From an uncultured Candidatus Poseidoniales archaeon (GTDB lineage: Archaea > Thermoplasmatota > Poseidoniia > Poseidoniales > Poseidoniaceae), in contig CACLCM010000001.1 in the NCBI GenBank assembly GCA_902605365.1, positions 82,595-146,594 of the forward strand: a stretch of DNA of 64,000 nucleotides, given 5' to 3'. Position 1 is the first letter of the stretch. Every line of letters begins with the position of its first letter. Below, in pieces: positions 19,506 through 40,811 of this stretch. The notes under the pieces were generated by a model. It saw only the letters and a program-made list of their open reading frames with translations. It searched no databases and had not been told where the DNA came from. The position numbers and the translations under genes were made by a program.

Positions 19506-19558
19506 TTCCAAATTTCTCCTACGGTAAGGTATATTTGTGATTGTTTCGACGGAGGTTT

Positions 19559-20236: not shown

Positions 20237-20238
20237 TT

Positions 20239-22133: not shown

Positions 22134-22151
22134 TTCCCGGTTTTTTGGAAA

Positions 22152-24831: not shown

Positions 24832-26333
24832 GGCCGCACCCATCCACCGTCAGTGCTTCTTACATTTCCACCCTTCTCATGGGATAGCAAGTGAGACAGT
24901 GTCTGGTCAACAGATAGTCCTGGGTGTGCATTAGGAGTATCAGAATAAGCGACTTTGGCAATTTCTTCTAGGACTGAATGACCTGCTTCAACAGCAGCTA
25001 ATACCTTGTCGTGTCTAATTGAGCGATGTCGAATATAATGTTCTAGAGTACGGTATGGAAGTGGTATAACTGGTCCATGAGAAGGGAACATTAGGTGGGG
25101 GTCCAAGTCCAGCAAACGCTCTAACTGCTCAATGTAAGTCACCATCTCGCCTTGATGTGGGGGGACTAGAATAGTTCCTATTCCGGCAACCATGTCTCCT
25201 GCAATCAATCCTGAATCAGAAATCAGGCAGAGATGTTCTGGATGGTGACCAGGTGTGTGAAGAACAGTCCATTCTTGGTTTCCTAATTTGAGAACTTCAC
25301 CATCTTTCAGTATTCTATCAGCAGTAGGTGCTGCTGACCAAATCGGTACGTCAAAAGCCTCTTTCAATAGCCCAGAATCTGCGATATGGTCTCCATGGCT
25401 ATGAGTATAGAATACGGCAACTAATTCGCCCTTGTGCCTCTCGACAGCCTCTGCAACATCTTCCATTCCTTCTCGATGTCTAAATGCGGGGTCTACTACA
25501 ATGAAATCCCCTTCTGGGTCTCCAACCAAGTAGCAATTCGTATGGTCAGCAGGAGGGAGAGTTGCAGTCTTTACAGGTACGACCTCAACTCCTTGAGCGA
25601 AAAGAATTGAGCGGCGACCTGGTTTACGTGCTTCTAAGTCAATAGCGACCCTTGTCATGTCCTGGTCCATCATCGAAAGGCATCTTTCTACTTCCATTAG
25701 AAGAGTTACAACCGGTGGTGCTACCTTGATTGCATTATTCTGCCATGCTCCGATTATGTCACGAGGACGCATCCATCTCGCATCTTCAAATTCAGTTTGA
25801 CCAACCAGTGAAAACTCATCATGTTCCTTGGAATGGATATGTAGGAATGTATTCTCAAACCTCATCGGCCCAAATGGCGGAGTAGTCCTCATCGATATGA
25901 TTCGCATACCGGTGGTATCAGATGGAATGTCACCGTCTAGTGCAAGAGGGAACCAATTCGCCTTGTCATCGACTACCATTCTTCTGAAATCTTCCTCTAC
26001 AGATACCAATTTACCGCCTTGAGGAGCCAGTCCTAATTCCTCGACAAGTTCTCGCAAAATCGCACAGTGTTGAACAGAAATTCCGATAACTTCACTCGCA
26101 GCTTTGTCAACACGTGAGACTCCACCACCTGGAAATGCCCAGTATCCGGGGAATGAGGGCATTGTTTCACAGCGCTGTCCAAGAAGGACTTCAACGCCAT
26201 CATCGCCATCTCGTGTTATCATTAGAGTCGCAGATGGACGGGGAGGTTTTCTCTCAAAATCTGGCAGTGACACACCGGACGGGACCTCGCTCATATTGCG
26301 GGCCAACACACAAATGGTTTCAAGACATAACAT
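24828..26333 (-). CDS. NUDIX hydrolase fused to MBL-fold metallo-hydrolase
   Basis: NUDIX box GYWAFPGGGVSRVD...ILRELVEELGL is present, as is the metallo-beta-lactamase motif YTHSHGDHIADSG. Alternative start at 26294 (MSEVPSG). Confidence 0.8.
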   Translation of the reverse strand: MLCLETICVLARNMSEVPSGVSLPDFERKPPRPSATLMITRDGDDGVEVLLGQRCETMPSFPGYWAFPGGGVSRVDKAASEVIGISVQHCAILRELVEELGLAPQGGKLVSVEEDFRRMVVDDKANWFPLALDGDIPSDTTGMRIISMRTTPPFGPMRFENTFLHIHSKEHDEFSLVGQTEFEDARWMRPRDIIGAWQNNAIKVAPPVVTLLMEVERCLSMMDQDMTRVAIDLEARKPGRRSILFAQGVEVVPVKTATLPPADHTNCYLVGDPEGDFIVVDPAFRHREGMEDVAEAVERHKGELVAVFYTHSHGDHIADSGLLKEAFDVPIWSAAPTADRILKDGEVLKLGNQEWTVLHTPGHHPEHLCLISDSGLIAGDMVAGIGTILVPPHQGEMVTYIEQLERLLDLDPHLMFPSHGPVIPLPYRTLEHYIRHRSIRHDKVLAAVEAGHSVLEEIAKVAYSDTPNAHPGLSVDQTLSHLLSHEKGGNVRSTDGGWVRP

Positions 26334-26347
26334 GGTCTGGCACCTCC

Positions 26348-26518
26348 ATGGTCACAATTGAGGAGGATCTCGAGATGTTGGCCACAGCTATTGACATGGG
26401 AATAGATCCGTTCCCTCCTCCAAGAAAAAAGAGACCTTGGGCAAAGTATGCTATCGCTTCTTTCATGTCGATTATGATGATCAGTTGGGTCTCCAAATTC
26501 CTAATGCGGTTCGCGTGA
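26348..26518 (+). CDS. Possible small membrane protein (56 aa)
   Basis: This is the only ORF in the 190-nt gap between two minus-strand genes. It reads MVTIEEDLEMLATAIDMGIDPFPPPRKKRPWAKYAIASFMSIMMISWVSKFLMRFA, with one C-terminal helix. There is no supporting homology. Confidence 0.25.
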   Translation: MVTIEEDLEMLATAIDMGIDPFPPPRKKRPWAKYAIASFMSIMMISWVSKFLMRFA

Positions 26519-26523
26519 AGAAA

Positions 26524-28185
26524 TCAAGCCTTGATGGACTCTAACTCTACAGGGTCTAATTTCAAACCTTTAGACATTTGAGTTCTTACGTATTCAGTCA
26601 CTTCTTTAGCGGTATCTTTTGATTCTTTAGTTCTCTTAGCAAGCGTTCGCATTGGCATTGCCATGCGATGATTTTTGGAGAAGTGAGATTGATTCTCCTC
26701 CAAGAAATTCCAATACATATCAGACATAGGACACGATTTTTTGAAGTGAAGTGAACAATCTCCACAGTAATCTCCCATTTTTTTGATGTAAGGAGTTCCG
26801 CTAACATATGGCTTAGTAGTCATCACATCACCTACAGCATAAGTCCCCATTGCTAGTACGTTTGGCTCGACTACCCAATCATAGGCATCAGTAAACATGG
26901 CCCAAAACCAGTCGGTTAATTCACGTGGATTAATTCCCAACAAATTACCGATATTAGCTAGTACCATCAGGCGAGGAATGTGGTGAGCATAACCTGTTTC
27001 AACAACATCAGAAACCGCAGTATCTAAGCACAGCATACCGCTTTTTTCTCCCCAATATGTTGGAGGTAAATCAAAATCGTTTCCAAGAACATTTGGTGTA
27101 ACTCTAGAGTTACTCCATTCACCTTCCCATCCGGCTCCACTGCGTGATGATAATTCTCCATCCTCAACTTCGAAACCATTGGTTAATTCGTGTACGTGAC
27201 GAACGAATTCCCTCCACCCAATTATTTGGCGTACGAATCCTTCTTTGGAGTTTAATGGAATGTCCAACTTCAATGTATCTTCAAGCAGATTTCTTGGCAT
27301 CAATCTGCCTAGGTTTAGCAGAGATGAAACAGTGGTGTGAAACAGTGTTTTGTGCTCTTTGGTCATAGCATCTTCATACGGGCCAAACCAGTGCATAACA
27401 GTTGATTTTGCCCAATCCCATAGGCGTGTAGAATCTTCATTGGATGCAGGTATATTCTCTTGGTTAATTTTCCCGGGATGATGTGAAAATTTGCTCTCAA
27501 CCATTTGTATTACTTCATTAGTAATCTGGTCTGGTTTGAAACTGGGCATCTGTGGTAGTTCAACCGCACTATCCCACGGTAGGCGATTCTGGTCATCTAA
27601 TGACCATGAACCACCTAATGGCTTACTATTTTCATCTAACAATATCGATTGGCTTTTCCTGATATGGCGATAGAATTTGTCCATTCTCCACGGAGGTTTA
27701 TCGCCCACGCTCGAGGTGAAATCTTCAGTTGTGGTTAACCATCCCTTGTGATTTAATAACTTGATTTTTCCAGTATCAATCAGATTTGAAATCGCTTTTC
27801 TCAAAGTAAGTTCAGCAGGCTTAGTTGCTGTAACCACTCCGTATTCATCTATTATTTCAGCAAGAACTTCAGAGTATCCTTTGTCGCTGAAAATGTACCT
27901 AATCGGGTGCCCAAGCCTTTGCATCTCAAGTGCGAAATGTCTCTGATTCGATAATTGCAGTACTAATTTCTGTTTGTGGTAGGGCAGTTGTTTTGCCTTC
28001 CAAGTAGTTTCAATAAATATCAGTCCAAGTTTACTAGCCTCAATTGCAGGAAGGAGTTCTTGATTCAGTTGGTCATATGTAACGAAGTGCCAGCGTTCCA
28101 CTCCGTTCGGAATGTCTAGTAAAGACGAAGCGAACGCTGACACATTACAAAGATTGTAGTTCTCCTTTTGAAAACTTGTTGCCAA
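26524..28185 (-). CDS. Cryptochrome/photolyase-family protein, COG3046 / FeS-BCP (PhrB/CryB-like) type
   Basis: The length and the motifs IIGWREFVRHV, GYAHHIPRLMVL and YDWVVEPNV fit. So does the C-terminal Cys cluster GDYCGDCSLHFKKSCP, typical of the Fe-S bearing prokaryotic (6-4) photolyase group. Confidence 0.75.
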   Translation of the reverse strand: MATSFQKENYNLCNVSAFASSLLDIPNGVERWHFVTYDQLNQELLPAIEASKLGLIFIETTWKAKQLPYHKQKLVLQLSNQRHFALEMQRLGHPIRYIFSDKGYSEVLAEIIDEYGVVTATKPAELTLRKAISNLIDTGKIKLLNHKGWLTTTEDFTSSVGDKPPWRMDKFYRHIRKSQSILLDENSKPLGGSWSLDDQNRLPWDSAVELPQMPSFKPDQITNEVIQMVESKFSHHPGKINQENIPASNEDSTRLWDWAKSTVMHWFGPYEDAMTKEHKTLFHTTVSSLLNLGRLMPRNLLEDTLKLDIPLNSKEGFVRQIIGWREFVRHVHELTNGFEVEDGELSSRSGAGWEGEWSNSRVTPNVLGNDFDLPPTYWGEKSGMLCLDTAVSDVVETGYAHHIPRLMVLANIGNLLGINPRELTDWFWAMFTDAYDWVVEPNVLAMGTYAVGDVMTTKPYVSGTPYIKKMGDYCGDCSLHFKKSCPMSDMYWNFLEENQSHFSKNHRMAMPMRTLAKRTKESKDTAKEVTEYVRTQMSKGLKLDPVELESIKA

Positions 28186-28233
28186 TCATAGAGTAATACA
28201 GACCTTATTAATTGAATTAGATTAGTGAAAGTT

Positions 28234-29058
28234 ATGCCTGAAGGACCTGAAATCCATCGTGCTGCGAATAGGATTCGCAAAGCACTGGAGGGCATGGTCA
28301 TCGAGGATGTTGAAATTACAATTCCAAGGTTCTCAGAATCTCATGAACAATTTCTTGGTAAGACGGTAAACCGAGTTGAAGCCCGTGGAAAGGCTATGCT
28401 GATCCACTTCGATAATTTCGTAATGTACAGTCACAATCAATTGTATGGAAGATGGACTGTTAACTTGAAGGATACAGCTCCAAAAAAATGGAATCGCGCT
28501 CTACGTGTTGCTCTTACAACAGAAAAGCACACTTGTAGACTGTGGTCTGCAACCGACATTTTGCTGATGGAGCCGTGGGAATTATCTGGCCATCCTTATC
28601 TTTCCAAACTTGGACCAGATGTCGTAATTCCTGAAACTACTGTAACTGAATTAGTTGAGCACATGAATGACAAGAGATTCCAGAGACGCCGATTGAAATC
28701 GCTATTACTAGACCAAGGTTTCTTTGCTGGAATTGGCAATTATCTACGCAGTGAGGTCTTATTCACTTCTGGCCTGCATCCCGATAGAACAGTTTCTTCA
28801 TTGAGCGATGAGGAAAAGAAAGTTTTAGCTGAGCAGGCACTCTTCTTATCTCGTCAATCATTCGATGTTCCTGGCATAACCGTCGACTTGGAAATGTATG
28901 ACAAATTACGTAGTTTTGGACAAACTAGAGGCCAGGCTAGGCATTGGGTATTCACTAGAAATGATATGGAATGCCATAACTGCAATTCCCTAATCATTCA
29001 TACCCGCCCTGGGGGCAGAAGGTTGGACTATTGTCCACAGTGTCAACCGGATTGCTAA
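28234..29058 (+). CDS. nei: Endonuclease VIII / formamidopyrimidine-DNA glycosylase family (Nei/Fpg)
   Basis: N-terminal MPEGPEI carries the catalytic Pro2/Glu3. The C-terminal zinc finger is CHNCNSLIIHTRPGGRRLDYCPQC. GTG 28225 would add three residues and bury Pro2. Confidence 0.85.
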   Translation: MPEGPEIHRAANRIRKALEGMVIEDVEITIPRFSESHEQFLGKTVNRVEARGKAMLIHFDNFVMYSHNQLYGRWTVNLKDTAPKKWNRALRVALTTEKHTCRLWSATDILLMEPWELSGHPYLSKLGPDVVIPETTVTELVEHMNDKRFQRRRLKSLLLDQGFFAGIGNYLRSEVLFTSGLHPDRTVSSLSDEEKKVLAEQALFLSRQSFDVPGITVDLEMYDKLRSFGQTRGQARHWVFTRNDMECHNCNSLIIHTRPGGRRLDYCPQCQPDC

Positions 29059-29163
29059 TGCAACAAGTTCAACCTACATTTTCCCATAAGAGGGAAGTAG
29101 CTACGAGCAGTAAATACATTTGATAATAGTACTTTGAATTCCAAACTGAAAAGATACAAGATG

Positions 29164-29184
29164 TTTTTTTAACCGGTTCTTTTT
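29164..29184 (+). terminator. Oligo-T tracts flanking AACCGGTT palindrome, possible archaeal terminator for nei
   Basis: tttttttaaccggttcttttt lies about 105 nt after the nei stop. Archaeal termination commonly uses oligo-T. Confidence 0.3.
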
Positions 29185-29194
29185 GGCGCAGGAC

Positions 29195-30196
29195 ATGAGG
29201 GTAACTGGTCCCACCTTTGCGGCGATTCTGTTGCTTTCTGCAACCTTATCTGGTTGTATTGGTTTTGGAGATGAAGAAGATTCAAATTCAAAAAATCAGG
29301 ATGCTAACGGAGAAGACATTTATTCCATCCATTGTCAAGAATACGATGATCTTGAGAGGTGTTGGAAACTGCTAGTTCCCAATAGCGTAGAGAAAGATAC
29401 TCTAGTACCACTTGTAGTTGATATTCATGGTTATACCCAAGACATGGATAAGCACAACAATGTGACTGGTTTTGCTGATTTAGCAATAGAACAGGGGTTC
29501 ATGGTAGTCTATCCAGATGGATATGAGAACTCTTGGAATGCGGGTGATATTTGTTGCGGAATAGCCTTTGAAGAGGGCATTGATGACATGAGTTTCCTCT
29601 TAGGAATGGTAGAGCACTTGATTGAAACACAACCTGTCGATGCAAATCGGGTATATGTCTCTGGATGGTCAAATGGCTGTTCGATGACACAAATGCTTGC
29701 AACTCAAGCCAGTGAAGTATTTGCAGCTGCGGGATGTATGGCGATGTATTTGATTACCGCACCATCTCCAGATTATTCACCGGTTCCATTCATGGAAGTA
29801 CATGGACTATTAGATGATCTAATTCTGTATGGTAATACTGGACCACTCTATATCTTTGGCCAAGAAGAAGGATGGGCGAAGGAAGGAGCGTTGCAGAATC
29901 TTGAAGACTGGAGAAAGATGAACAATTGCTCCGGCTTAGCTCCTGAAATGATAACAGTTGAGACAGATTATGATATTCGAGGATATTCGAATTGTGATAA
30001 CGGGGCAGAAGTTCGTCTCATGACTCTAAACTATGCAGGTCATAATCCGTATGCAAAAGACTGTCCTGACTATCAATTAGATTCTGCTGGCGACCTACTT
30101 TGGTCGTGCAGGAAGAATCCGACAGGGATAGAATCTACACGTATTCTGTGGGAATTCTTGAGTGGTTTTTCTAAAAGTGATGAAGAATCGTTCTAA
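29195..30196 (+). CDS. Secreted lipoprotein esterase, PHB-depolymerase/LpqC (COG3509) family
   Basis: Lipobox LSATLSGC. VVDIHGYTQ, YPDGYENSWNAGDICCG and the nucleophile elbow VSGWSNGCSM are present. The ORF is open from TTG 29183. Confidence 0.7.
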   Translation: MRVTGPTFAAILLLSATLSGCIGFGDEEDSNSKNQDANGEDIYSIHCQEYDDLERCWKLLVPNSVEKDTLVPLVVDIHGYTQDMDKHNNVTGFADLAIEQGFMVVYPDGYENSWNAGDICCGIAFEEGIDDMSFLLGMVEHLIETQPVDANRVYVSGWSNGCSMTQMLATQASEVFAAAGCMAMYLITAPSPDYSPVPFMEVHGLLDDLILYGNTGPLYIFGQEEGWAKEGALQNLEDWRKMNNCSGLAPEMITVETDYDIRGYSNCDNGAEVRLMTLNYAGHNPYAKDCPDYQLDSAGDLLWSCRKNPTGIESTRILWEFLSGFSKSDEESF

Positions 30197-30234
30197 CCCG
30201 ATTTAGTTTGTAATCTGGTTTCAAGAACATAGGC

Positions 30235-30245
30235 CACGGTGTGTC
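30235..30245 (+). repeat. Left direct repeat of islet (cacggtgtgtc)
   Basis: Exact 11-mer shared with 34839-34849. It lies 39 nt after the esterase stop and 41 nt before the DUF262 gene stop. Confidence 0.55.
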
Positions 30246-30286
30246 CTAGACCTATTTTAATCAAATTCAACTATCGAGTTTGTACA

Positions 30287-32605
30287 TCACTCGTATTCTT
30301 GCCACCTTGATAAAATCCATTTCGTGAGAAGTTTCGATCTTTCATCATGCGATAAATTGTCATATCCTAACGAATATTTTTCTGCTGTTAATTTTATTCT
30401 TCTGTACTTTGCCTGATTAGAATAATAGTACTGTTTACAGTTTTTCGGTTCCTCGGTCATACCAAATTTTGAATCCCAATCAAAATTACTCGCCTCACTA
30501 TTTTCATATGGTTGCAAAATTGTTAGATTCCCAATTGTGTTACTATATTTTTGATGCCACTTCTGATAATCTGGCTCTTCGCCTTCAAGGATTTTAATTT
30601 CATCAGAAAATTCCCATGTTTCCATTCTCGGAACCCATTTTGTATATGTCTCTGGGATGATATGTTCAATGGTGCTTTCAGTGTATTTTTCAATCACGTA
30701 ATCTTTGTGGCCCACCTTACTTCCAGACATTTCATATTCGTTCAATAAATACCTAGCCAAAGCTCTTTTTGAGTACATATTTGTTGATTTAAGTTCTCTA
30801 GTAACAGATTCATCGTCAGGATAATCATATCCAGATGTTGATTTTAACTTTCTAAGTAATGAGTTTGAATCTGGTTTTTCTCCACATGTCTTCCACATTC
30901 CTCTGAAAAAGTTTGTGAATCCTGCGTTTTGTAAACTACAGATGTTACGGCGTACTAGATATGATTCAATGACGTCCAAACACTTGGCAACCTCATCCTC
31001 TTGAGATTGAGTTCTTCTGTAAAATTGAAGTAATTCCATAAGGTACGGGAACGTCGTTGTAGGAGGATTATATCTTCGTAAACGAAGCAGCCGTTTCCAA
31101 ATCTTTTCACTTGTTCTAATTGGATCTGTTTTGCCACCATCGGCCTCCAATATTTCATTCTCTGGGAATTCTCGACAAAGAGAGATGTACACTGGGGCCA
31201 TTTCTTTTAATTCAGCAATCATTGCCGCTGATGTAGATTTTTTCGTTTTCCAATAATGTCTTAGTTGGACATACATCTTTCCTTTTGTGACATTTTCAAT
31301 AGGCCTAGTTAATGTAAAAGGAAAATAATAATCATCCAATTTCGATTTGACGTTGTTATTCGATTTGAATGAAAAGGATTCTTCATACTCTCGCATACTT
31401 CCTTCATAAAGATCATTAGCAGCTTCTGGCATATCTATTAGATTTTCAAAAATGAGGTTTCTGACTAAGTCTCCTGCTGATAGCTTTTTTCCAGTATTAT
31501 TCAAACGCTCGAAAATCATGTAAGGGTTTATTTCATTTGGAAGAATAATCATCGTGAAAAACAATCGATCTTTGATTATTTCAAACAAATATTCTAATTT
31601 TTCTCTGACTACATTTCCCTTTGAATCTCTAACCCTAGCTTTTACTCCCTTAATTAGATCGTTTTTCCAGGCATTGATTAATCTAACATTCTTACCTTTA
31701 TCCTGATTTAATTTTGGCTGTCCTAATGTTGGTATTAGATATTTTAGAATCTCGTTAAATTGTTTGGTATCAGAAATAGTTGGTACAATTGTGGGTGTGT
31801 TTTTTCTTGTCCCTGTTTTCACTGTCAAAGGGTCAGCAAAATTCTCTGCTATATCTCCAAACCCATTATCTTGGGCAACTTTGGTGATTGCACAAATTAG
31901 AGCATACAATGTGGTCAATCTTTGCTGCCCATCAATTACCCAATTTTCCTGAGTGCTTGATCCCGCTCCTGGCTTTGAGATACTAACCAAAATAGCGCCC
32001 AAGAATTGACTGTTTTCGTTGCCATGCCAAATATCATCGATATCACTCCATAGAGTGTCAAACTCGGTTTTTTCCCATTTGTAACGTCTTTGAAACATTG
32101 GCATTACGTAAATTTCTGTTCCATTAAGCAAAGTGCCTATAGTTTCTTGAGTTAAGGTAAGGTCTTCGCTTTTTGTATATATTCTATCTTCATTAGAACT
32201 TGGAATTGGATACTCCTCATATTGAATTACTGTCTCATTATCATTATCCAGATTATGCTCGATAGTCAGAGTTTTTTGCAGGATGAGACAAATTAAAACT
32301 TCCTCTTCTTCGTCATAATAAATCTCCATTTCATCATCTAGGTTTCCGAGATCTTTGATGTTAGAAATTCCAAATCGTCGATCACCTCTTGTTCTCGAAC
32401 GATAAATTGACATTTGTCCAATCTGTTTGGATTCTCCAATTCGAATTTGTATTGGCACCACAACTCCATTTTCCCTGCCATTTTTCATTTTTTCATAATC
32501 ACAGATTTCTAATTTACGAAGTAGTTTCCTGAGAGACGGTTTGGAATCAAATAGGTTCTTACCCCAGTTATTTGCAGTGAATACATACTTGGGTCTTTCT
32601 TCCAT
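30287..32605 (-). CDS. DUF262 (ParB-like NTPase) + DUF1524 (His-Me finger nuclease) protein, GmrSD/type IV restriction family, with unassigned N-terminal domain of about 145 aa
   Basis: VMPMFQRRYKWEK and VIDGQQRLTT are the DUF262 motifs. STIEHIIPE and IGNLTILQPYENSEASN are the DUF1524 motifs. The start is 4 nt downstream of the methyltransferase stop. Confidence 0.8.
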   Translation of the reverse strand: MEERPKYVFTANNWGKNLFDSKPSLRKLLRKLEICDYEKMKNGRENGVVVPIQIRIGESKQIGQMSIYRSRTRGDRRFGISNIKDLGNLDDEMEIYYDEEEEVLICLILQKTLTIEHNLDNDNETVIQYEEYPIPSSNEDRIYTKSEDLTLTQETIGTLLNGTEIYVMPMFQRRYKWEKTEFDTLWSDIDDIWHGNENSQFLGAILVSISKPGAGSSTQENWVIDGQQRLTTLYALICAITKVAQDNGFGDIAENFADPLTVKTGTRKNTPTIVPTISDTKQFNEILKYLIPTLGQPKLNQDKGKNVRLINAWKNDLIKGVKARVRDSKGNVVREKLEYLFEIIKDRLFFTMIILPNEINPYMIFERLNNTGKKLSAGDLVRNLIFENLIDMPEAANDLYEGSMREYEESFSFKSNNNVKSKLDDYYFPFTLTRPIENVTKGKMYVQLRHYWKTKKSTSAAMIAELKEMAPVYISLCREFPENEILEADGGKTDPIRTSEKIWKRLLRLRRYNPPTTTFPYLMELLQFYRRTQSQEDEVAKCLDVIESYLVRRNICSLQNAGFTNFFRGMWKTCGEKPDSNSLLRKLKSTSGYDYPDDESVTRELKSTNMYSKRALARYLLNEYEMSGSKVGHKDYVIEKYTESTIEHIIPETYTKWVPRMETWEFSDEIKILEGEEPDYQKWHQKYSNTIGNLTILQPYENSEASNFDWDSKFGMTEEPKNCKQYYYSNQAKYRRIKLTAEKYSLGYDNLSHDERSKLLTKWILSRWQEYE

Positions 32606-32609
32606 GTTA

Positions 32610-33908
32610 TTACTCGTAAGTTAATATTGATTTAATTCTTTCACCAATCGATTTCGCCATAAATGGAGGGACAGCGTTTCCAATTTGAGTGTATTTTGGA
32701 CACTCTCTTTCAAAAATACCCTCACTTGGTTTTCCCGCACGACGATCTCCACCAGTAGTTCTTGGCCCTAAGAATACATGATGATCTGGTAATGTTTGAA
32801 GACGAGCCCATTCTCTAACAGAATATGTCCTAGGAACTGAATAATGAACGTAATCATCTGGTATTGATTGACAAGTCATTGTAGGATTATTTCCCTTCCA
32901 TCTTCTTGGAGTAAACGATTGATTGTTTTTCTTAGTGCGTAAATGTTCAGGACAGTCTTTCATATTGCACTGATTATCAATCATGAATTGAAATCTCTCT
33001 TCAGTTGATGGACGATGATTTGAAAACTCGTGATCTGTAAGGAGATGCTTTCTCCAATTATCGCCTAACATGGCACGCATTTGTTTTTGGTACTCTGTTT
33101 TTGGTTTCTTACGATGCCTAGGTTTTTCTTCTATCCAACCTTGGAAATTTAAATCATCAATTGCATCAATGATGTCAGGAGGAATTAGTCCATTTCCAAT
33201 AGGAAATAATCCGCCATTGTTCCTTAATTCACCACTATAATTTGACTTTCCTCCCTGAAAGAACTTTTTTTGACGGGGATTAAATTTAATCATGTCGAAT
33301 TCGCCTTTCGAATAAACGTCATGCCTAACCCCCATGATCATGACACGTGGACGGTTTTGAGGAACTCCGAAATTGTACGCATGAAGTAATGTTGGTTGGA
33401 TTTTGTATCCTTCGATGCTCTCAAATTCTTTCCATACCCTCCTAAATACCTCTCCTTTCCTTGCTTTCTTTTTTTTCCATTTAGCTGTAAGTAAGCCTTC
33501 CACATTCTCAAATAAGAAAACCTTAGGTTGAAGTATATTGATCACTCTAATCATTTCTTGGAAAAGGTAACTTGTTGGGATATCTTTAGTTTCCACTTTC
33601 TGACTTCTGCGAACTTGACTACGTGAATATTCTTGACAAGGAGGGCCTCCACAAAGCAAGTCAAGTTTACCTATGCCTCCTAATATTGGTAGCAGTTCCT
33701 TTTTGATAATGTCATTGGATAACACATCGACTATGTTTCCTACAAATGGTATCGCATCAGGGAAATTGGCTCGAAAGGATGCTGCTGCATTCACATTTAC
33801 CTCATTGAAAGCTACGCATCTAAACCCCGCCCCTTCCAAACCTCTAGTTAATCCGCCGCACCCTGCGAACAAATCAACACTTGTCAGATTCCTTCGCTCT
33901 CCCATCAT
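32610..33908 (-). CDS. dcm: DNA (cytosine-5)-methyltransferase
   Basis: Motif I DLFAGCGGLTRGLEGAGF, motif IV GGPPCQEYS, motif VI LFENVEGL, motif VIII QNRPRV, motif X GNAVPP. Confidence 0.9.
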   Translation of the reverse strand: MMGERRNLTSVDLFAGCGGLTRGLEGAGFRCVAFNEVNVNAAASFRANFPDAIPFVGNIVDVLSNDIIKKELLPILGGIGKLDLLCGGPPCQEYSRSQVRRSQKVETKDIPTSYLFQEMIRVINILQPKVFLFENVEGLLTAKWKKKKARKGEVFRRVWKEFESIEGYKIQPTLLHAYNFGVPQNRPRVMIMGVRHDVYSKGEFDMIKFNPRQKKFFQGGKSNYSGELRNNGGLFPIGNGLIPPDIIDAIDDLNFQGWIEEKPRHRKKPKTEYQKQMRAMLGDNWRKHLLTDHEFSNHRPSTEERFQFMIDNQCNMKDCPEHLRTKKNNQSFTPRRWKGNNPTMTCQSIPDDYVHYSVPRTYSVREWARLQTLPDHHVFLGPRTTGGDRRAGKPSEGIFERECPKYTQIGNAVPPFMAKSIGERIKSILTYE

Positions 33909-33929
33909 TTGTTGTGTGCCAACACCTGG

Positions 33930-33936
33930 ATATAAA
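33930..33936 (-). promoter_or_regulatory. TATA-box-like element upstream of methyltransferase (would give a leaderless or near-leaderless mRNA)
   Basis: The minus strand reads gggTTTATATcc. The element is centred about 26 nt upstream of the ATG at 33908, matching archaeal TATA-to-TSS spacing. Confidence 0.3.
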
Positions 33937-33977
33937 CCCTGGCTTTAAACAATCAATTCACACCAATTAAAGCAGTT

Positions 33978-34696
33978 TTAGTAATTAGTTCTAACCAAAA
34001 TTCGACTGACTTGTTTGTGAGACCATTTTCCTCCTCGCTTGGCAGGAACGCCACACTCATTCAATTCTCTTGCAATCTCTGAAACCTTAATGCCGTCTTC
34101 GTGATACCTTGCATGGATGTATTCAATCCACTTCTGTTCCTCTTCATTCTCGATGAAGTTGTTGTCCTCATCCACATCCCAACCGTATTTATCGTAGGTG
34201 AATCGCTTTCCTGTATCTTTGAGATGCTGTAAGGCCATACAGGTTCGCTCGCTGATGAGATTCCTCTCCATTTCACCAAAGGCAGCCAAGATGGTAATCA
34301 GCATCCTGCCAACTGCTGAAGACAAATCAAGAGGTTGCCCTCCTGATTCACAGAATTGAATTCCTACTCCAAATTCATCTAATTCTTCTACTGTAGCAAG
34401 GCAATCGATGGTGCTGCGAAATAATCTATCCATTCTGTAAGCAAAAATGTGCTTAATTTTCTGCTTAAGGATGAACGCTTCATCTGCTTAGCAGCAGGTC
34501 TTGACCACAATGGCACCTTGGCACTCACTCCGTCATCGATGAAAATATTCTCATCAGGAAGCAGTAAATTACGAAATTCTGCGTTAGCTTTTCCTTTGGC
34601 AATTTGAGCATCTATGCTCACTCCATCCTCCGCTTGACGAGTTGTTGATACTCGAACGTAGAGAACGCATTCTTCTGCTTGTTTCTGCTTAGCCAT
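33978..34696 (-). pseudogene. Serine recombinase (resolvase/invertase type with recombinase/HTH C-terminal part), interrupted by a frameshift near 34472-34490
   Basis: The upstream frame gives MAKQKQAEECVLYVRVSTTRQAEDGVSIDAQ...DDGVSA...RPAAK. The other frame continues ADEAFILKQKIKHIFAYRMDRLFRSTIDCL...AAFGEMERNLISERT...GGKWSHKQVSRIL. The two halves are ORFs 34388-34834 and 33978-34433. Confidence 0.75.
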
Positions 34697-34838
34697 CAAT
34701 CTAGATTTATCCGGCTTGGTATTTACACTCACGCGACGGCCAAAAGTTCGGACACTGGGTTGGTGTGTCCGTCTTTTTCTGCTTGTAGAAGCAGAAGTAA
34801 AAGTGGATTTTCGGGTTGCTATATGGTCGGCCATACCG

Positions 34839-34849
34839 CACGGTGTGTC
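34839..34849 (+). repeat. Right direct repeat of islet (cacggtgtgtc)
   Basis: Exact 11-mer shared with 30235-30245. It lies upstream of the recombinase and 55 nt before the next plus-strand gene. Confidence 0.55.
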
Positions 34850-34903
34850 TTGAGGAGGATTTTCCTACGATTAGTTTATCACCTACATCCTTGAGTTTTG
34901 AGC

Positions 34904-36691
34904 ATGAAAGCCGTTTTCCTTTCGATACTTCTCGTTATTTCAGGAGCATTTGCAGGATGTCTGAATTATGAAGATGAAGATGAGGAACCAGAATTTTTTG
35001 GTGAAGTGTACTGGCAAGAAAATGGTGTAGCATTGATTTGGGTTGATGAGTGGTTGTATTATGGACTACCAAAAATCAATGGGGGTTGTGATGAGTGGAA
35101 TGTCATTTTAGATGATGAAATTGATTGGGATAAATTCACAGTCGTAGAAGGTCAGCCCATAGGTGATGTTTGTTTTGACGTAGCTAGAGATGAAAAGCAT
35201 GTATCAACTTACACTGGAGATTATTTTGAAATTTGTATTGTAGGAGATGAGGAAGATTTTTGCTACGACATACACCTAATCGACGGCGGCATAATTCGTT
35301 ATTATGATGGATATTATGTCATGTGTACCTTCTATGCAAGCGACATAAGAGAGCCAACTGGGGGGTACGAAACCACCCCTGTTCTCTTAGTAGATGATGA
35401 AGAGTGGCACGAGCAGTTTGCAGATTTTGTAAGGGATTCTCAAGATGCAGCAGAAGAAATTGGATGCCTGACACCATCATACGATAATTTAGATGTCCCT
35501 TCGGGACCATGGATTAGCATAGATGAGATTGATGAAGATGATGAGGAGGACTATCCTAGATGTGAATTGATATGGCCTGAAGATGCTTTCAAGGCAGCAA
35601 TATATTCCTTCATTGCAGAGTATGAACTACTCTATGGTGCTTCAGTTGGTTGTTTCTTAGATGATTATGCTGACCAAACCTACGAAGATGTTGCCTTTGA
35701 CTTGGAGGATAATTTCTTCTCCTCGGATGCCTTGGAATACGCCCAAAATTGGGTTGACACAAATGCCCAAGAATATGGACAGGAATCATTTAACTTATCT
35801 ACAGAATTCAACATCGCAGGTGGAGGATTAGGCCACATAAACGGAACAACTCAACCTGAGCCAGTAGAGTGTAGTGAAAGTGGAGATGAAACTCCTGCTC
35901 AATCTACAAACTCATCTATATTCACAATCCAAGAAAACCCTCACGTTAACCAATCTGGAATGGCTTGCTTCACCAAATATGTCGAAGTATTTGGATTAGG
36001 CGTGTATGCTGAATCAGGACTTAGTGACGAACAAGTACTGCATGCAGCTGATGTATTAGCAGAATTACTAGACAATGACGAAGATGGGGTTGCTGATGAC
36101 CAAGCCTTGCTGTCAAGGCTGCAAGACATGAATGCTCTTGTTCCGATGTTCAATTCTGAAGAAATTGCTGAATCTCCTGCTCTTTTGGATTTCGAGGAGA
36201 ATTACAATGGCAATGGCGTAGGTGCAGTATTATTTGCAAACGAAGTAGATCCTGAAAATCCAGGGCTTTGGGGCGCAGATGCAACTATCGAGGAGATAAT
36301 GCACACAATCAATCATATTGGTCATGTTCATTTGTATCCAGATGCTTTTGGTTTAGAACCTAATTCATCGTTGCTAAGTGATGCAATGGACGAAGCAAGA
36401 GGTGGTCAATTCGTTGAACATCCTGGCGAATATCCTGAGGATGCATGGTATCATTACGACGATGTAACGTGCGAATACGATTGCATGGCTATCGAATACC
36501 TCTACTGGGCTCAAGTCGCAAATATGGGCTTACTGAATGATACTGAGACTTGTGATGGTATTGATGATGAATGGCAGCCATGCTCGAAGGAATTGTTGGA
36601 AAGTATGGATGTGCTAATCTATGCTCTAGTTACCGACCCACAGTATATGCTGCCTCAAATTGCGCCTGATGGTCAATATAATCCTGAATGA
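34904..36691 (+). CDS. Highly acidic secreted lipoprotein, unknown function
   Basis: Signal plus lipobox MKAVFLSILLVISGAFAGC. It is Asp/Glu-rich throughout and has a His cluster, EEIMHTINHIGHVH. The ORF is open from TTG 34898. Confidence 0.7.
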   Translation: MKAVFLSILLVISGAFAGCLNYEDEDEEPEFFGEVYWQENGVALIWVDEWLYYGLPKINGGCDEWNVILDDEIDWDKFTVVEGQPIGDVCFDVARDEKHVSTYTGDYFEICIVGDEEDFCYDIHLIDGGIIRYYDGYYVMCTFYASDIREPTGGYETTPVLLVDDEEWHEQFADFVRDSQDAAEEIGCLTPSYDNLDVPSGPWISIDEIDEDDEEDYPRCELIWPEDAFKAAIYSFIAEYELLYGASVGCFLDDYADQTYEDVAFDLEDNFFSSDALEYAQNWVDTNAQEYGQESFNLSTEFNIAGGGLGHINGTTQPEPVECSESGDETPAQSTNSSIFTIQENPHVNQSGMACFTKYVEVFGLGVYAESGLSDEQVLHAADVLAELLDNDEDGVADDQALLSRLQDMNALVPMFNSEEIAESPALLDFEENYNGNGVGAVLFANEVDPENPGLWGADATIEEIMHTINHIGHVHLYPDAFGLEPNSSLLSDAMDEARGGQFVEHPGEYPEDAWYHYDDVTCEYDCMAIEYLYWAQVANMGLLNDTETCDGIDDEWQPCSKELLESMDVLIYALVTDPQYMLPQIAPDGQYNPE

Positions 36692-36907
36692 AATTATTCG
36701 GAAATTGTCCAATCAAACACCTTGGCTACTTGCCCAGGTATACAAGATTCCACTCAATACACAACATGCATAGAAAACAGCCCTAATTGGATTGTACTTC
36801 ACGGCTTCAAACCAATACCTCGGATTCAACAGATACAACATGAGAGTTATTCTTACTTAGTCCATTGTAATACTATTGCTTGTAATTGTAGATATCAAAT
36901 AAAATAT

Positions 36908-38737
36908 CTACTCTTCACTGTCTTCTAATTGTGAATCGTAAATTTGTTCTAATTCAGCGGCTCTTTCTTCTGAAATACCAAATGTTTTAGCCTGGAATTT
37001 GAGCATTTTTCGCTCATCATCAGTAACAAACCGATCTTCCATTGCGATTCCATATGCCTCGGAATATGCATTTTCTTTATCCATGCGAAGAACTTCTGAT
37101 TCAGTCATCTGCGCTTGGATTTTAAATTCATCATATTGAATAAATCCATCTTGATTCAAATCAATTTCTTTGAAAAATTCAGACTGAGTTTCTGGAGGCA
37201 GTTTCGCAACTTCCGGAGATTGAGAAAATTCCTCTGGCGAAATTACTTCATCGTTATTTTTGTCCATTGATTCAAACGCCTCTTTGATTTCCCTCTCATC
37301 GATTGGTGCTAGACCAGTAGTTCCAAAGACACTCATCATATTTATCCCGCTTGAGCCATATTTCTCGGCTAGTCCTTCAGGAGTCTCGCGACCTTCTTCC
37401 AACTTGTCATACCATTCTTCAAGGTAAATTTTCTTCTCTTCATTAATCCCGTAAGCTTTCGCTTGGAGATCTAACATAGAACGTTCATTTACGGTAATCT
37501 TTCCATCCTTTTTTGCAAGAGAGTACATCTCAAGGTAACCTAATTCTTCCTTTGTGTGAGATTCAGGAAGAAGTTTTGACGAGATGATACCTATTGTCTT
37601 GATGATCGGTTTTCGCAGGATAATAAGTGGTAAACCAATTATTACGCCTCCAATCCAACCTTGGTCAAATATAGTTTCCATCACTTCAGTGCTTACTAAA
37701 AATAGAATTGCGCCCACTCCAGCGAAGATTGCAGTGCTGAATGTTTTCCGTAATTGTTCATCAATTCCAAACATGTCATTTTTGATAACTGCATATGTAA
37801 AAATGATACCTTCAAACAATGCAGCTAATACAACGGCGGTTGGCATCAGTGGAGCTAGTGCAATTAGGATTGCAGGGACATACTGGTCTGCATTGAAAGG
37901 ATTTGTACTCAGATTTGGCGATTCGCCGAGAATAGAAATAATCGTAAATAGAATCATAGTTGTCACAATTTGTAAAGTAGTCTTGCCAATGAATCCTAGT
38001 CGAACTGCACGCACTTCTCCAATGAGGTTTGCATTTCCTTCTGAATTTATTCTCTTCTGCGACTTTCCTACTGCGATTGTTGCAATTATTGCCCCAATAA
38101 GCGGGATGAAAAGTAGAACCTGTGTTAGTGGGCCAAGTGCGACATTAGAGTATGTCAAGGGATATACTGATGCATATTTTTCAGGACATGTAACTTCAAA
38201 GGGCAAGGGGTTGCCTGAAGCGGTAGTGCCTTGTCCAGCGCCTACTCCTTCACAGTAAATCCAGCCAATATCTCCAATCGCTACACTTGTTCCTCCCAAA
38301 AGGTGGCTTAAACCAATAATTAGTGTGAAACTGATTATCGGGAGAACGTATAATCCATGGAAACGGAAAAAGTCTTTAACTTTCTTAGCCCATTTCTTTT
38401 CACTGTAAAATGCGCCTGCCAAAATGTACAGAACAAATAATTGAAACGACATAGTGTAGTAAACTATTCTTGCAGGCTTTAGAACGCTCAGGAAACTTTC
38501 AGGCCAAGCATAGACCCAGAACAACATTGCTGTAGCGCATCTCAGTGCTTCAGTAAATAACATCAATGCCATAAATCGATTTTTAGCCTCTTTTGGACCT
38601 GCCTTCAATATAAGGTAAGAAAGGAAAATCAGGAAAACCGCTGCAAAAATACTGAAAATAGCAAGTAAGCCCCAGTATCCCAAGAATGAACCTGAAGCGC
38701 GCCAATAATATGAGAGTGGCGAGCCTACATCTGCCAT
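36908..38737 (-). CDS. Polytopic membrane protein with cytoplasmic C-terminal region carrying two EF-hand loops and two TerB-like/co-chaperone-like repeats
   Basis: About 10 predicted helices in the N-terminal 380 aa. EF loops are DKNNDEVISPEE and DLNQDGFIQYDE. Repeats are KDGKITVNERSMLDLQAKAYGINEE and EDRFVTDDERKMLKFQAKTFGISEE. Confidence 0.75.
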   Translation of the reverse strand: MADVGSPLSYYWRASGSFLGYWGLLAIFSIFAAVFLIFLSYLILKAGPKEAKNRFMALMLFTEALRCATAMLFWVYAWPESFLSVLKPARIVYYTMSFQLFVLYILAGAFYSEKKWAKKVKDFFRFHGLYVLPIISFTLIIGLSHLLGGTSVAIGDIGWIYCEGVGAGQGTTASGNPLPFEVTCPEKYASVYPLTYSNVALGPLTQVLLFIPLIGAIIATIAVGKSQKRINSEGNANLIGEVRAVRLGFIGKTTLQIVTTMILFTIISILGESPNLSTNPFNADQYVPAILIALAPLMPTAVVLAALFEGIIFTYAVIKNDMFGIDEQLRKTFSTAIFAGVGAILFLVSTEVMETIFDQGWIGGVIIGLPLIILRKPIIKTIGIISSKLLPESHTKEELGYLEMYSLAKKDGKITVNERSMLDLQAKAYGINEEKKIYLEEWYDKLEEGRETPEGLAEKYGSSGINMMSVFGTTGLAPIDEREIKEAFESMDKNNDEVISPEEFSQSPEVAKLPPETQSEFFKEIDLNQDGFIQYDEFKIQAQMTESEVLRMDKENAYSEAYGIAMEDRFVTDDERKMLKFQAKTFGISEERAAELEQIYDSQLEDSEE

Positions 38738-38881
38738 GATAATTCGTTTTGAACTCGGTACTTATTACTAGTCCCGGCAACAAAACCTCTAGTGTATTTC
38801 ATCGGTTTTTTTGTGGTCATGATTTGTTTTTTATTAGTAGACAGTCAGCAGATTGAATAAAACTGTACAGTTGGGGACTTC

Positions 38882-40078: not shown

Positions 40079-40127
40079 TTCGTGGAACTAATCAAGATTC
40101 TATAAACCTCAGAATTAGTAGCGGGCT

Positions 40128-40769: not shown

Positions 40770-40811
40770 GTTCTCGAATAATCAAAAGTAATAGGACCAT
40801 TTCAACGAAGC

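What the first reader, a model, noticed from the sequence alone, without database searches (positions are those of the whole stretch)
30235..34849. 4.6-kb AT-rich islet bracketed by an 11-bp direct repeat, inserted between two unrelated secreted-protein genes
The exact 11-mer cacggtgtgtc occurs at 30235-30245 and again at 34839-34849. Both copies sit in the short spacers immediately outside a three-gene minus-strand block: a DUF262/DUF1524 nuclease, a C5 methyltransferase and a serine recombinase. The block is visibly more AT-rich than the flanking esterase and lipoprotein genes. An 11-mer recurring somewhere in 64 kb is unremarkable. Recurrence within about 50 nt of both outer gene ends of a recombinase-containing block is not expected by chance. 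Deleting one repeat copy plus the interior would leave a spacer of about 97 nt between the two plus-strand neighbours. That looks like an att-site duplication from integration of a small defence cassette at a non-tRNA site.
Basis: partly seen in the sequence, partly recalled or inferred. Interest (0 to 1): 0.75.

Follow-up and report, generated by a model that had tools for sequence, protein, structure and literature searches.

The report
Archaeal serine-recombinase defence island
The 4.6-kb AT-rich block is an integrated mobile element of marine Poseidoniales archaea that carries a DNA methylase and a nuclease, was probably inserted by its own small serine recombinase (now broken by a frameshift) at a short specific site, and belongs to a family of such elements I could not find described in the searched literature.

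Summary
CACGGTGTGTC occurs only at 30235 and 34839 (0.01 expected). It brackets a GmrSD-like nuclease, a C5 methyltransferase and a serine recombinase. Only the cargo is AT-rich.

Intact relatives of the recombinase (79-96% identity) lie in at least five other Poseidoniales contexts. In each, DNA conservation begins exactly at the 11-mer. Two complete elements end in the same element-side arm plus 11-mer, with unrelated flanks and different restriction-type cargo. A related contig (L080) has fpg, a single 11-mer and the lipoprotein gene, matching the window from the 11-mer onwards, so it acts as an empty site.

The repeat looks like nine bases of a shared 12-bp half-site plus a TG/CA crossover dinucleotide inside a 26-bp dyad site. 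It is not a target duplication. The 238-aa recombinase resembles a large serine integrase cut off before the zinc-ribbon and coiled-coil domains.

The flanking esterase and lipoprotein genes are themselves bounded by such sites in relatives, which suggests serial site-specific accretion. I rate this a new variant of a known kind. No circular form was seen.

The parts
30223..30248 (-). attL: 26-bp junction site. Read on the minus strand it is TAGGACACACCG|TG|GCCTATGTTCTT. The chromosomal half is 30223-30234, the crossover dinucleotide CA (TG on the minus strand) is 30235-30236, and the element half is 30237-30248. It contains the left 11-mer, 30235-30245.
30246..30261 (-). Distal element arm (P'): minus strand AAATAGGTCTAG plus core. 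The 24 bases AAATAGGTCTAGGACACACCGTGG are identical to the far end of the L073 element. Diverged copies follow the core in L001, L013 and L076.
30287..32605 (-). Cargo gene 1: 772-aa GmrSD-family (DUF262 plus DUF1524) nuclease. The ORF is intact, with DGQQR and HxxP...N motifs and an N-terminal ~150 aa that match no Pfam family. GC 0.354.
32610..33908 (-). Cargo gene 2: 432-aa C5 cytosine DNA methyltransferase. The ORF is intact, with motifs FAGCGG, PPCQ, ENV, QNRPR and GNAVPP. GC 0.390.
33978..34696 (-). Serine recombinase pseudogene. It is homologous to the intact 238-aa P0080 (93-96% identity in tblastn of P0080; 96% for the reconstructed protein). A 1-nt deletion near 34475/34476 splits it into ORFs 34388-34834 and 33978-34433. 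The probable true start is ATG at 34696 (MAKQKQ...).
34697..34838 (-). Recombinase-proximal non-coding arm (P), almost invariant among close family members. It holds half-site CGGTATGGCCGA (34827-34838), inverted repeat TTCTGCTT-N4-AAGCAGAA (34778-34797), palindrome GGACAC-N9-GTGTCC (34751-34771) and a TATA-like box GTAAATAC (34719-34726) 23-30 nt before the ATG.
34827..34852 (-). attR: 26-bp junction site. Read on the minus strand it is CAAGACACACCG|TG|CGGTATGGCCGA. The element half is 34827-34838, the crossover CA is 34839-34840, and the chromosomal half is 34841-34852. It contains the right 11-mer, 34839-34849.
29183..30196 (+). Left flank: secreted esterase gene. In L001 it lies between two direct core sites, and it is absent from L080.
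34860..36706 (+). Right flank: lipoprotein gene unit (ORF 34898-36691). It is 91% identical in DNA to a copy in distant Poseidoniales, where it lies between two direct sites.

Best explanation
Window 30237-34840 (4,604 bp) is an integrated mobile element of a Poseidoniales (Marine Group II) archaeon. I infer that a circular form carrying a 26-bp attP (TAGGACACACCG|TG|CGGTATGGCCGA) recombined with a chromosomal 26-bp attB (CAAGACACACCG|TG|GCCTATGTTCTT), catalysed by the element's own serine recombinase with strand exchange at the central TG/CA dinucleotide. attB and attP share the half-site bases GACACACCG next to TG, so both junctions carry the same 11-mer. The recombinase module (gene plus ~140-nt arm) is the conserved core of a family, and the cargo is exchangeable restriction or defence genes. 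Here the cargo is an m5C methyltransferase and a GmrSD-type nuclease, both intact, and probably a self-marking enzyme paired with a nuclease against foreign DNA. In this copy a 1-nt deletion has inactivated the recombinase. The islet is therefore a fixed, domesticated defence cassette unless it is mobilised in trans. Shown: the repeat, the gene content, the frameshift, the family, the coincidence of homology limits with the 11-mer, and a site with a single 11-mer in a relative. Inferred: the enzyme-site relation, the TG crossover, the circular intermediate, and the defence function.
For: (1) DNA homology between the window and L073, L074, L075 and L076 covers only 34849 down to about 34000. 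It begins exactly at the 11-mer at 34849 for L073 and L075, and two bases inside it (34847) for L074 and L076 (77-91% identity). (2) L073 (Ca. Poseidonia alphae) has recombinase, C5 MTase, a GmrSD_N gene, Z1 and DUF4420 bracketed by the same 11-mer at 9848 and 18739. Its far end, AAATAGGTCTAGGACACACCGTGG, is identical to the window's left end, and the outer flanks are unrelated. (3) L076/L077 carry different cargo (an Eco57I-type MTase) with an exact distal core and a 7/11 proximal core. L082 and L083-85 add further insertion contexts. (4) L080 matches fpg 28715-29063, then after 29 nt matches window 34839-36886 at 95%, starting exactly at the single 11-mer. (5) Dyad symmetry peaks at TG: attP scores 9, 8 and 7 of 12, the reconstructed L076 attB 10/12 and the L080 attB 7/12. 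The summed score is 52 against 39 for the next register. Hybrid cores differ from the consensus only at core positions 1-8 in L074 and L076 and at position 9 in L083-85, never at the TG. (6) A half-site matrix finds only these two sites in the window, 0.25 per shuffled window, and none in 62 unrelated loci. (7) The recombinase has the invariant serine-recombinase residues, and its fold matches large serine integrases. (8) The cargo is the compositional outlier.
Against: No circular attP junction was found; one viral-contig scan returned 0 hits, and read data are not available. L080 also lacks the esterase, so at least two events separate it from the window, and it is a single 2.5-kb metagenome contig. 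L001, L013 and L081 carry a P'-like arm after the esterase core, which needs the extra assumption that they hold other elements or scars. No recombinase activity is shown. Truncated 238-aa LSR-like proteins are not known to me to integrate DNA. This copy is frameshifted, and a sequencing error cannot be excluded. The TG crossover rests on symmetry and on a few hybrid cores. The window and L073 attB sites score slightly better one base to the left.
Confidence: 0.82

Rival explanations
1. The region is an ordinary flexible genomic island exchanged by homologous recombination in flanking core genes. On this view the 11-mer is a conserved regulatory or terminator-like motif downstream of genes, and the recombinase is a passenger (a resolvase or invertase for something else).
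For: The esterase to EF-hand interval differs wholesale between close strains: L001 has an unrelated 1103-aa gene there. The 11-mer also lies 3' of the esterase and of the lipoprotein gene in genomes without a recombinase nearby.
Against: Homology limits fall on the 11-mer in five unrelated contexts. The element-side arms are conserved while the outer flanks are not. The sites are dyad-symmetric about one dinucleotide. No terminator-like structure or Rfam family was found there. The repeats are direct, not inverted.
Confidence: 0.08
2. The islet is a transposon-like insertion whose 11-bp repeat is a target-site duplication made by staggered cleavage.
For: There are short direct repeats at both ends of a recombinase-containing unit.
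Against: The same 11-mer flanks independent insertions in different loci. An unoccupied site already contains it. In L076 the two copies differ at 4 of 11 positions. No DDE or HUH transposase is present, and serine recombinases do not make long target duplications (established knowledge).
Confidence: 0.02
3. The sites and the recombinase form a cassette-shuffling system rather than a single self-contained element. Any unit bounded by two direct sites (esterase, lipoprotein, defence genes) can be excised and re-inserted. On this view the three-gene block is only the recombinase-bearing member of an array.
For: L001 has three direct cores that delimit the esterase and an 1103-aa gene. In L066-type genomes the lipoprotein gene lies between two direct sites, one with a P'-like arm, and is 91% identical to the window's copy although the neighbouring genes are about 67% identical. 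L073 has an extra internal P'-core site bounding a recombinase-less module. L080 lacks the esterase.
Against: The same pattern follows from repeated integration at one hot spot followed by decay. The half-sites next to the passenger genes score poorly. No free cassette circles and no activity data exist.
Confidence: 0.35

Closest known systems
Staphylococcal cassette chromosome elements (SCC/SCCmec) moved by CcrAB/CcrC large serine recombinases
   Same: The recombinase belongs to the same clade: the best NCBIfam match is CcrB positions 6-227 (1e-26). Both integrate site-specifically at a short site just 3' of a gene, carry short direct repeats at both ends, and form composite or tandem arrays that include recombinase-less units bounded by the same repeats (PMC7029739 and PMC9430635 for SCC composite islands, which I identified from title and abstract only).
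   Different: The host is an archaeon. The recombinase is 238 aa rather than about 450-560 aa and lacks the zinc-ribbon and coiled-coil domains. There is one recombinase gene, not a pair. At least five different insertion loci are used rather than one. The sites are 26 bp with 12-bp half-sites. The cargo is restriction or defence genes.
Phage and IME large serine integrases (phiC31, Bxb1, TP901-1, SPbeta)
   Same: The catalytic domain, long alphaE helix and recombinase-domain fold match: Foldseek TMq 0.54-0.63 to Bxb1 and a further large serine integrase entry (9dxd/9dxh), and 33% identity to TP901-1 Int. A non-palindromic central dinucleotide and hybrid attL/attR junctions are also shared.
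   Different: Those enzymes use about 40-50-bp attP/attB sites read by the recombinase domain plus the zinc-ribbon domain, and they control direction through coiled-coil motifs and an RDF (PMC3783163, PMC5499577). This protein ends after the recombinase domain, and no RDF candidate is evident.
Small serine recombinases (Hin/Gin invertases, Tn3/gamma-delta resolvases)
   Same: They are similar in size, have one small DNA-binding domain, and use a 12+2+12-type dyad crossover site. They also have extra binding-site-like palindromes with altered spacing beside the recombinase gene, reminiscent of res subsites (established knowledge).
   Different: Those enzymes invert or resolve within one molecule and do not integrate elements. 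The sites here are direct repeats bounding a unit with variable cargo and variable location. The C-terminal domain matches the LSR 'Recombinase' domain (PF07508), and no other C-terminal domain family was matched.
Integrons
   Same: They are arrays of gene units separated by copies of a recombination site next to a recombinase gene.
   Different: Integrons use a tyrosine recombinase and folded single-stranded attC sites, and have an attI platform with a promoter. None of these is present here.
IS607-family serine transposons (the serine-recombinase elements previously noted in archaea; PMC6563490, PMC8371274)
   Same: They are serine-recombinase-driven mobile DNA found in archaea.
   Different: IS607 transposases have an N-terminal MerR-like DNA-binding domain. 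The elements are 1-2 genes long with little target specificity (established knowledge). Here the DNA-binding domain is C-terminal, the target is specific, and the cargo is several kb.

Membership tests
Serine recombinase superfamily | Resolvase-type catalytic domain with the nucleophilic serine and conserved Arg/Asp residues | tested here: met
   PF00239 matches both halves. The motif YVRVSTTRQ is present. In a 30-sequence alignment S17, R15, Q21, R66 and D90-R91 are invariant. The fold matches. The window copy is frameshifted.
Large serine recombinases (serine integrases) | Recombinase domain (PF07508) following helix E | tested here: inconclusive
   PF07508 matches positions 1-54 of 102 only. 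The AF2 model shows a beta-hairpin plus a three-helix domain that superposes on the LSR recombinase domain.
Large serine recombinases (serine integrases) | Zinc-ribbon domain with embedded coiled-coil, needed for att-site discrimination and directionality | tested here: not met
   Intact family members are 236-239 aa. Alignment to CcrB stops at 227 of 542 positions. Foldseek targets are 486-535 aa, of which only about half is covered. No Pfam zinc-ribbon hit was found.
Resolvase/invertase small serine recombinases | C-terminal HTH_7-type domain, with intramolecular resolution or inversion between res, hix or gix sites | tested here: not met
   Only PF00239 and PF07508 were returned for the recombinase ORFs, so no HTH_7-type domain is detected. 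The sites are direct repeats that bound units found in different loci.
Site-specific integrative element (genomic island) | Recombinase gene next to one end, with att-type repeats at both ends | tested here: met
Site-specific integrative element (genomic island) | The same element family at different loci, with conserved ends and unrelated flanks | tested here: met
   Five further contexts: L073, L074/75, L076-78, L082 and L083-85.
Site-specific integrative element (genomic island) | An unoccupied target with a single copy of the repeat in a relative | tested here: met
   L080: ttgattgaaaacactgcc CACGGTGTGTC ttgacgaggattttcc, joined to the lipoprotein flank. Caveat: L080 also lacks the esterase.
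Site-specific integrative element (genomic island) | An excised circular form, or demonstrated excision and integration | not testable with these tools
   No read data are available. The viral-contig scan for the junction gave 0 hits.
GmrSD-family Type IV restriction enzymes | DUF262 (ParB-like, DGQQR) plus DUF1524 (His-Me/HNH) domains | tested here: met
   PF03235 at 1.9e-32 and PF07510 at 2e-16. PADLOC Orf5 and HEC-06 models match at up to 1e-69. The motifs are visible in the translation.
GmrSD-family Type IV restriction enzymes | Cleavage that depends on modified (for example glucosyl-hmC) DNA | not testable with these tools
   Biochemistry is required. The pairing with a C5 MTase could mean a different logic.
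C5 cytosine DNA methyltransferases | Conserved motifs I, IV (PCQ), VI (ENV), VIII and X | tested here: met
   PF00145 at 1.9e-56 and TIGR00675 at 5e-48. The motifs are in the translation.
Integrons | IntI tyrosine recombinase with attI and attC | tested here: not met
   The only recombinase is of the serine type.

The most novel reading that the evidence does not exclude
The 26-bp site and its small serine recombinase may be the engine of a flexible genomic island in Poseidoniales. On this reading, gene units with no recombinase of their own (secreted esterase, lipoproteins, other surface proteins, defence modules) are each bounded by directly repeated sites, often with the P'-type arm. They would be captured, stacked, excised and passed between lineages by site-specific recombination. 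That would make this an archaeal, serine-recombinase counterpart of SCC composite islands or integron cassette arrays. It would also be carried out by a recombinase lacking the domains that give large serine integrases their directionality.
Probability: 0.33. Interest if true: 0.82.

Novelty: new variant of a known kind. Interest (0 to 1): 0.6.

Why it matters
Poseidoniales are among the most abundant archaea in the surface ocean and are uncultured. Almost nothing is known about how they acquire genes. Three full-text searches found no description of serine-recombinase integrative elements in them. A review states that archaeal serine recombinases have been seen only in transposons and were never fully investigated (PMC8371274).

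This locus gives a concrete and testable system. It has a 238-aa recombinase, a 26-bp site with a proposed TG crossover, defined attL, attR, attB and attP sequences, and natural variants with different restriction and defence cargo.

If the enzyme works as inferred, three things follow. It would explain a hypervariable surface-protein and defence locus in these archaea. It would show how a serine integrase-like enzyme without the zinc-ribbon and coiled-coil domains handles integration. It would also offer a compact recombinase and short site for genetic tools.

Tried and rejected
(1) Looked for the exact empty site (esterase, 11-mer, lipoprotein) by fetching esterase relatives from genome and metagenome collections. 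It was not found. The closest strains break contigs or diverge about 12-16 nt after the 11-mer, and one contig (L081) ends in adapter sequence.

(2) At first I took the L001 and L013 divergence point (30258-30262) to mean the boundary was not at the 11-mer. I rejected this once L073 showed that the same 12 nt after the core belong to the element.

(3) Considered that the recombinase starts at ATG 34834, inside the att half-site, with a 46-aa basic extension. The ORF stays open in relatives of at least 73% identity. However, substitutions there are spread 16:18:19 over the codon positions, against 8:7:25 in the catalytic part, and more distant homologues lack the extension. I therefore treat it as non-coding. 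The linked idea that a promoter is rebuilt on circularisation was dropped as unsupported.

(4) Scanned viral contigs for the attP or proximal junction: 0 hits.

(5) An exact look-up of the window's GmrSD protein found nothing on record.

(6) Scans for Rfam families and for terminators or promoters across the ends found nothing relevant.

(7) Searches of the phage and plasmid collections with the recombinase gave only distant relatives of at most 41% identity.

(8) A degenerate 8/11 core upstream of the lipoprotein gene in L066 (around 9851) was dismissed as within chance. The matrix-detected site at 9917 was kept.
Full report
OBSERVATION

The 11-mer CACGGTGTGTC is present exactly at 30235-30245 and 34839-34849 and nowhere else in the window. 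Shuffles give 0.01 expected. Relaxed copies are not enriched elsewhere. The repeat extends to 15 of 18 bases. Shuffling the two short spacers gives a shared direct word of at least 11 nt in 246 of 200,000 trials, about 1.2e-3.

The block between the copies encodes three genes on the minus strand:
- a 772-aa GmrSD-family (DUF262/DUF1524) protein;
- a 432-aa C5 DNA methyltransferase;
- a serine recombinase.

The recombinase is split into two overlapping ORFs. Alignment with the intact homologues in L073, L074 and L075 shows a single 1-nt deletion near 34475/34476.

AT-richness is real but belongs to the cargo. GC is 0.354 and 0.390 for the two cargo genes, 0.430 for the recombinase and 0.430 for the window. 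The lowest GC in the window is at 30-33 kb. In tetranucleotide distance the cargo falls in the top 0.7% of windows. No tRNA gene lies nearby.

HOST AND LOCUS

Relatives of the flanking esterase place the window in Candidatus Poseidoniales, the Marine Group II archaea.

- L013, a Tara contig, is 98% identical and collinear with window 22054-30257. It then diverges and ends.
- L001, a MAG contig at 93-94% identity, matches 29132-30261 and 36903-38780. Between those stretches it carries an unrelated 1103-aa secreted protein in place of the islet plus the lipoprotein gene.

The interval from the esterase to the EF-hand gene is therefore a hypervariable spot in this species.

THE ISLET BELONGS TO A FAMILY OF ELEMENTS

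A reconstructed recombinase finds intact 236-239-aa homologues at 79-96% identity in Poseidoniales contigs.

- In L073 (Ca. Poseidonia alphae) the gene order is recombinase, C5 MTase, a GmrSD_N gene, Z1, DUF4420.
- In L074 it is recombinase, C5 MTase, and so on.
- In L076/L077 the recombinase sits next to an Eco57I-type methyltransferase-nuclease.
- L082 resembles L073.
- L083-85 are a further context.

DNA similarity between the window and these loci is limited to 34849 down to about 34000, at 77-91% identity. It begins at the 11-mer, at 34849 for L073 and L075 and at 34847 for L074 and L076. The methyltransferases are only about 27% identical, and the nuclease has no detectable match.

L073 carries a second exact 11-mer 8.9 kb away. 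It lies inside the stretch AAATAGGTCTAGGACACACCGTGG, the same 24 bases as at the window's left end. The sequences outside both copies are unrelated to the window's flanks. L076 has the same kind of distal end, TTGAAATATGCCGAG followed by the exact core.

So the element consists of a conserved recombinase-proximal arm (P), exchangeable cargo and a conserved distal arm (P'). The 11-mer lies at both junctions.

SITE ANATOMY (INFERRED)

All sites below are read in the recombinase's orientation, which is the window's minus strand. Every junction fits 12 nt | TG | 12 nt.

- Reconstructed attP is TAGGACACACCG|TG|CGGTATGGCCGA, with 9 of 12 dyad matches.
- The attB reconstructed for L076 is AAAATCACAGGG|TG|CCCTTTGATTCT, with 10 of 12.
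- The attB observed in L080 scores 7 of 12.
- Summed over seven sites, symmetry is highest with TG at the centre: 52 against 39 for the next register.

The imperfect proximal cores of L074 (GGCACACAGTG) and L076 (ATCACAGGGTG) differ from the consensus only at core positions 1-8. That of L083-85 (GACACACCATG) differs only at position 9. The TG itself is never changed. This is expected if bases to the left of TG come from the target.

On this reading the 11-bp direct repeat is the half-site segment GACACACCG, which attB happens to share with attP, plus the crossover dinucleotide. It is not a duplication created on insertion.

A matrix built from the half-sites finds only these two sites in the 64-kb window. 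It finds 0.25 per shuffled window and none in 62 unrelated Poseidoniales loci.

EMPTY SITE

L080 is a 2.5-kb metagenome contig whose lipoprotein is 98% identical to the window's.

- It matches the 3' end of fpg (28715-29063, 93%).
- After 29 nt it matches window 34839-36886 at 95%.
- That second match starts exactly at a single CACGGTGTGTC.

L080 thus shows the target with one copy of the core joined to the window's right flank. It lacks both the islet and the esterase.

The esterase-bearing strains L001, L013 and L081 carry a diverged P'-type arm after the core, each followed by different sequence. They look occupied or scarred rather than empty.

THE RECOMBINASE

- The best family matches are the N-terminal 227 positions of CcrB, and XisF.
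- The best solved-structure sequence match is the TP901-1 integrase catalytic domain.
- An AlphaFold model (mean pLDDT 85) shows a catalytic domain, a long helix E and a small beta-hairpin plus three-helix domain.
- The model superposes on Bxb1 (9iu2) and a further large serine integrase entry (9dxd/9dxh) over about 240 columns of 486-535-aa targets.

The protein is therefore a large-serine-integrase-like enzyme that ends before the zinc-ribbon and coiled-coil module. That module is the part that reads the outer att sequence and sets direction in phage integrases (PMC3783163, PMC5499577). A single small DNA-binding domain fits the short 12-bp half-sites.

Phage and plasmid collections hold only distant relatives. 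The best are about 230-aa proteins on cyanobacterial plasmids at 41% identity.

THE ARM BETWEEN THE CORE AND THE GENE

An ORF could start at ATG 34834, four bases from TG, and it stays open in relatives. However, substitutions in these 138 nt are spread evenly over codon positions (16:18:19). In the catalytic part the ratio is 8:7:25. More distant homologues lack the extension.

The likely start is therefore ATG 34696. It is preceded at 23-30 nt by a TATA-like box (GTAAATAC here, GTATATAG in relatives).

The arm holds three inverted repeats, and it folds better than shuffles (z = -3.4). They include GGACAC-N9-GTGTCC, which repeats the core's GACACACC with a spacing one base shorter than at the crossover site. 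I suggest this is an accessory or autoregulatory binding site, by analogy with resolvase res subsites. That is inference only.

CARGO

Both cargo genes are intact and have their catalytic motifs. GmrSD-family proteins are modification-dependent (Type IV) nucleases and are often found on mobile elements (PMC4619093; PMC4437046 and PMC8565348, identified from title and abstract only).

A C5 methyltransferase followed by a DUF262-type gene recurs in L073 and L082, although the sequences have diverged. I take the pair to be a defence module: a self-marking methylase and a nuclease aimed at foreign DNA. Its specificity cannot be determined here.

Cargo that is intact beside a broken recombinase is the usual picture of a domesticated island.

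BEYOND THE ISLET

The same sites bound neighbouring genes.

- L001 has three direct cores: at 1-11, at 1118-1128, and at 4598-4608 with one mismatch. They delimit the esterase and the 1103-aa gene.
- The lipoprotein unit (34860-36706) is 91% identical in DNA to a copy in distant Poseidoniales whose neighbouring DPRP gene is only 67% identical. There it lies between two direct sites. One of them has a P'-like arm, tattgaagtatagcTAGGACAAACCT|TG.
- L073 has an internal P'-core site that sets off a recombinase-less module.

This fits repeated site-specific insertion at one hot spot, as in SCC composite islands (PMC7029739, PMC9430635). It might also reflect trans-mobilisable cassettes. The data do not separate the two readings.

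COMPARISON WITH THE KNOWN, AND VERDICT

The mechanism is that of a serine-recombinase integrative island. The closest parallel is SCC elements with Ccr recombinases.

The locus fails membership of the large serine integrases on the zinc-ribbon and coiled-coil criterion. It fails membership of the resolvase/invertase group on domain type and on behaviour.

Three full-text searches found no description of such elements in Poseidoniales. A review says archaeal serine recombinases were seen only in transposons and never investigated.

I rate it a new variant of a known kind, with interest 0.6.

Main caveats:
- there is no circular form and no activity data;
- the evidence comes from metagenome contigs;
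- L080 differs from the window by more than one event;
- the TG assignment rests on symmetry and on a few hybrid cores.

Noticed in passing
window 34860-36706; L066 9957-11773: The lipoprotein gene unit is 91% identical in DNA to copies in distant Poseidoniales whose neighbouring DPRP gene is only about 67% identical. This indicates recent horizontal transfer of a secreted-lipoprotein gene. In those genomes the unit lies between two direct recombinase-type sites (L066 9917 and 11799).
   Followed up: partly
L001 1-11, 1118-1128, 4598-4608: Three direct copies of the core (the third with one mismatch) delimit the esterase gene and an unrelated 1103-aa secreted-protein gene. The contig starts exactly at a core.
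   Followed up: partly
window ~29118-29140 (between fpg and esterase): Compared with a composite of L080 and L001, the window (like L013 and L081) seems to lack about 18 nt that would contain a core site upstream of the esterase. This would have fixed the esterase in place.
   Followed up: partly
window 38780-40811: About 2 kb is present in the window but absent from the close relative L001 (L001 6514-6572). This is another strain-level indel next to the EF-hand protein gene.
   Followed up: no
window 34697-34834 (minus strand): A 46-codon ORF extension upstream of the recombinase start stays open in all relatives of at least 73% identity, yet shows no third-position bias in substitutions. The DNA is nearly invariant among close relatives and holds three inverted repeats.
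   Followed up: yes
L073 17556 and 18739-20717: The L073 element has an additional internal P'-core site (GACATACCGTG) that sets off a 1.2-kb module (a 75-aa ORF plus a DUF7669/NucS_C protein). Further methyltransferase genes lie beyond its distal end.
   Followed up: partly
L081 1153-1223: This metagenome contig ends in Nextera adapter sequence (CTGTCTCTTATACACATCT...) immediately after the core, so it gives no information on what follows the site.
   Followed up: yes
window ~5.4-10 kb and ~53-59 kb: These are the other tetranucleotide-composition outliers in the window. GC rises to 0.49 at 8-10 kb. Their gene content was not examined.
   Followed up: no
window 30287-32605 (minus strand), residues 1-150: The GmrSD-like protein has an N-terminal region of about 150 aa with no Pfam or NCBIfam match, ahead of the DUF262 domain.
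   Followed up: no
L082 10001-16970: A long-read contig carries an L073-like element whose genes (MTase, GmrSD_N, Z1, DUF4420) are all fragmented. This is probably from uncorrected indel errors, so truncated recombinase entries from such assemblies should not be read as pseudogenes.
   Followed up: no
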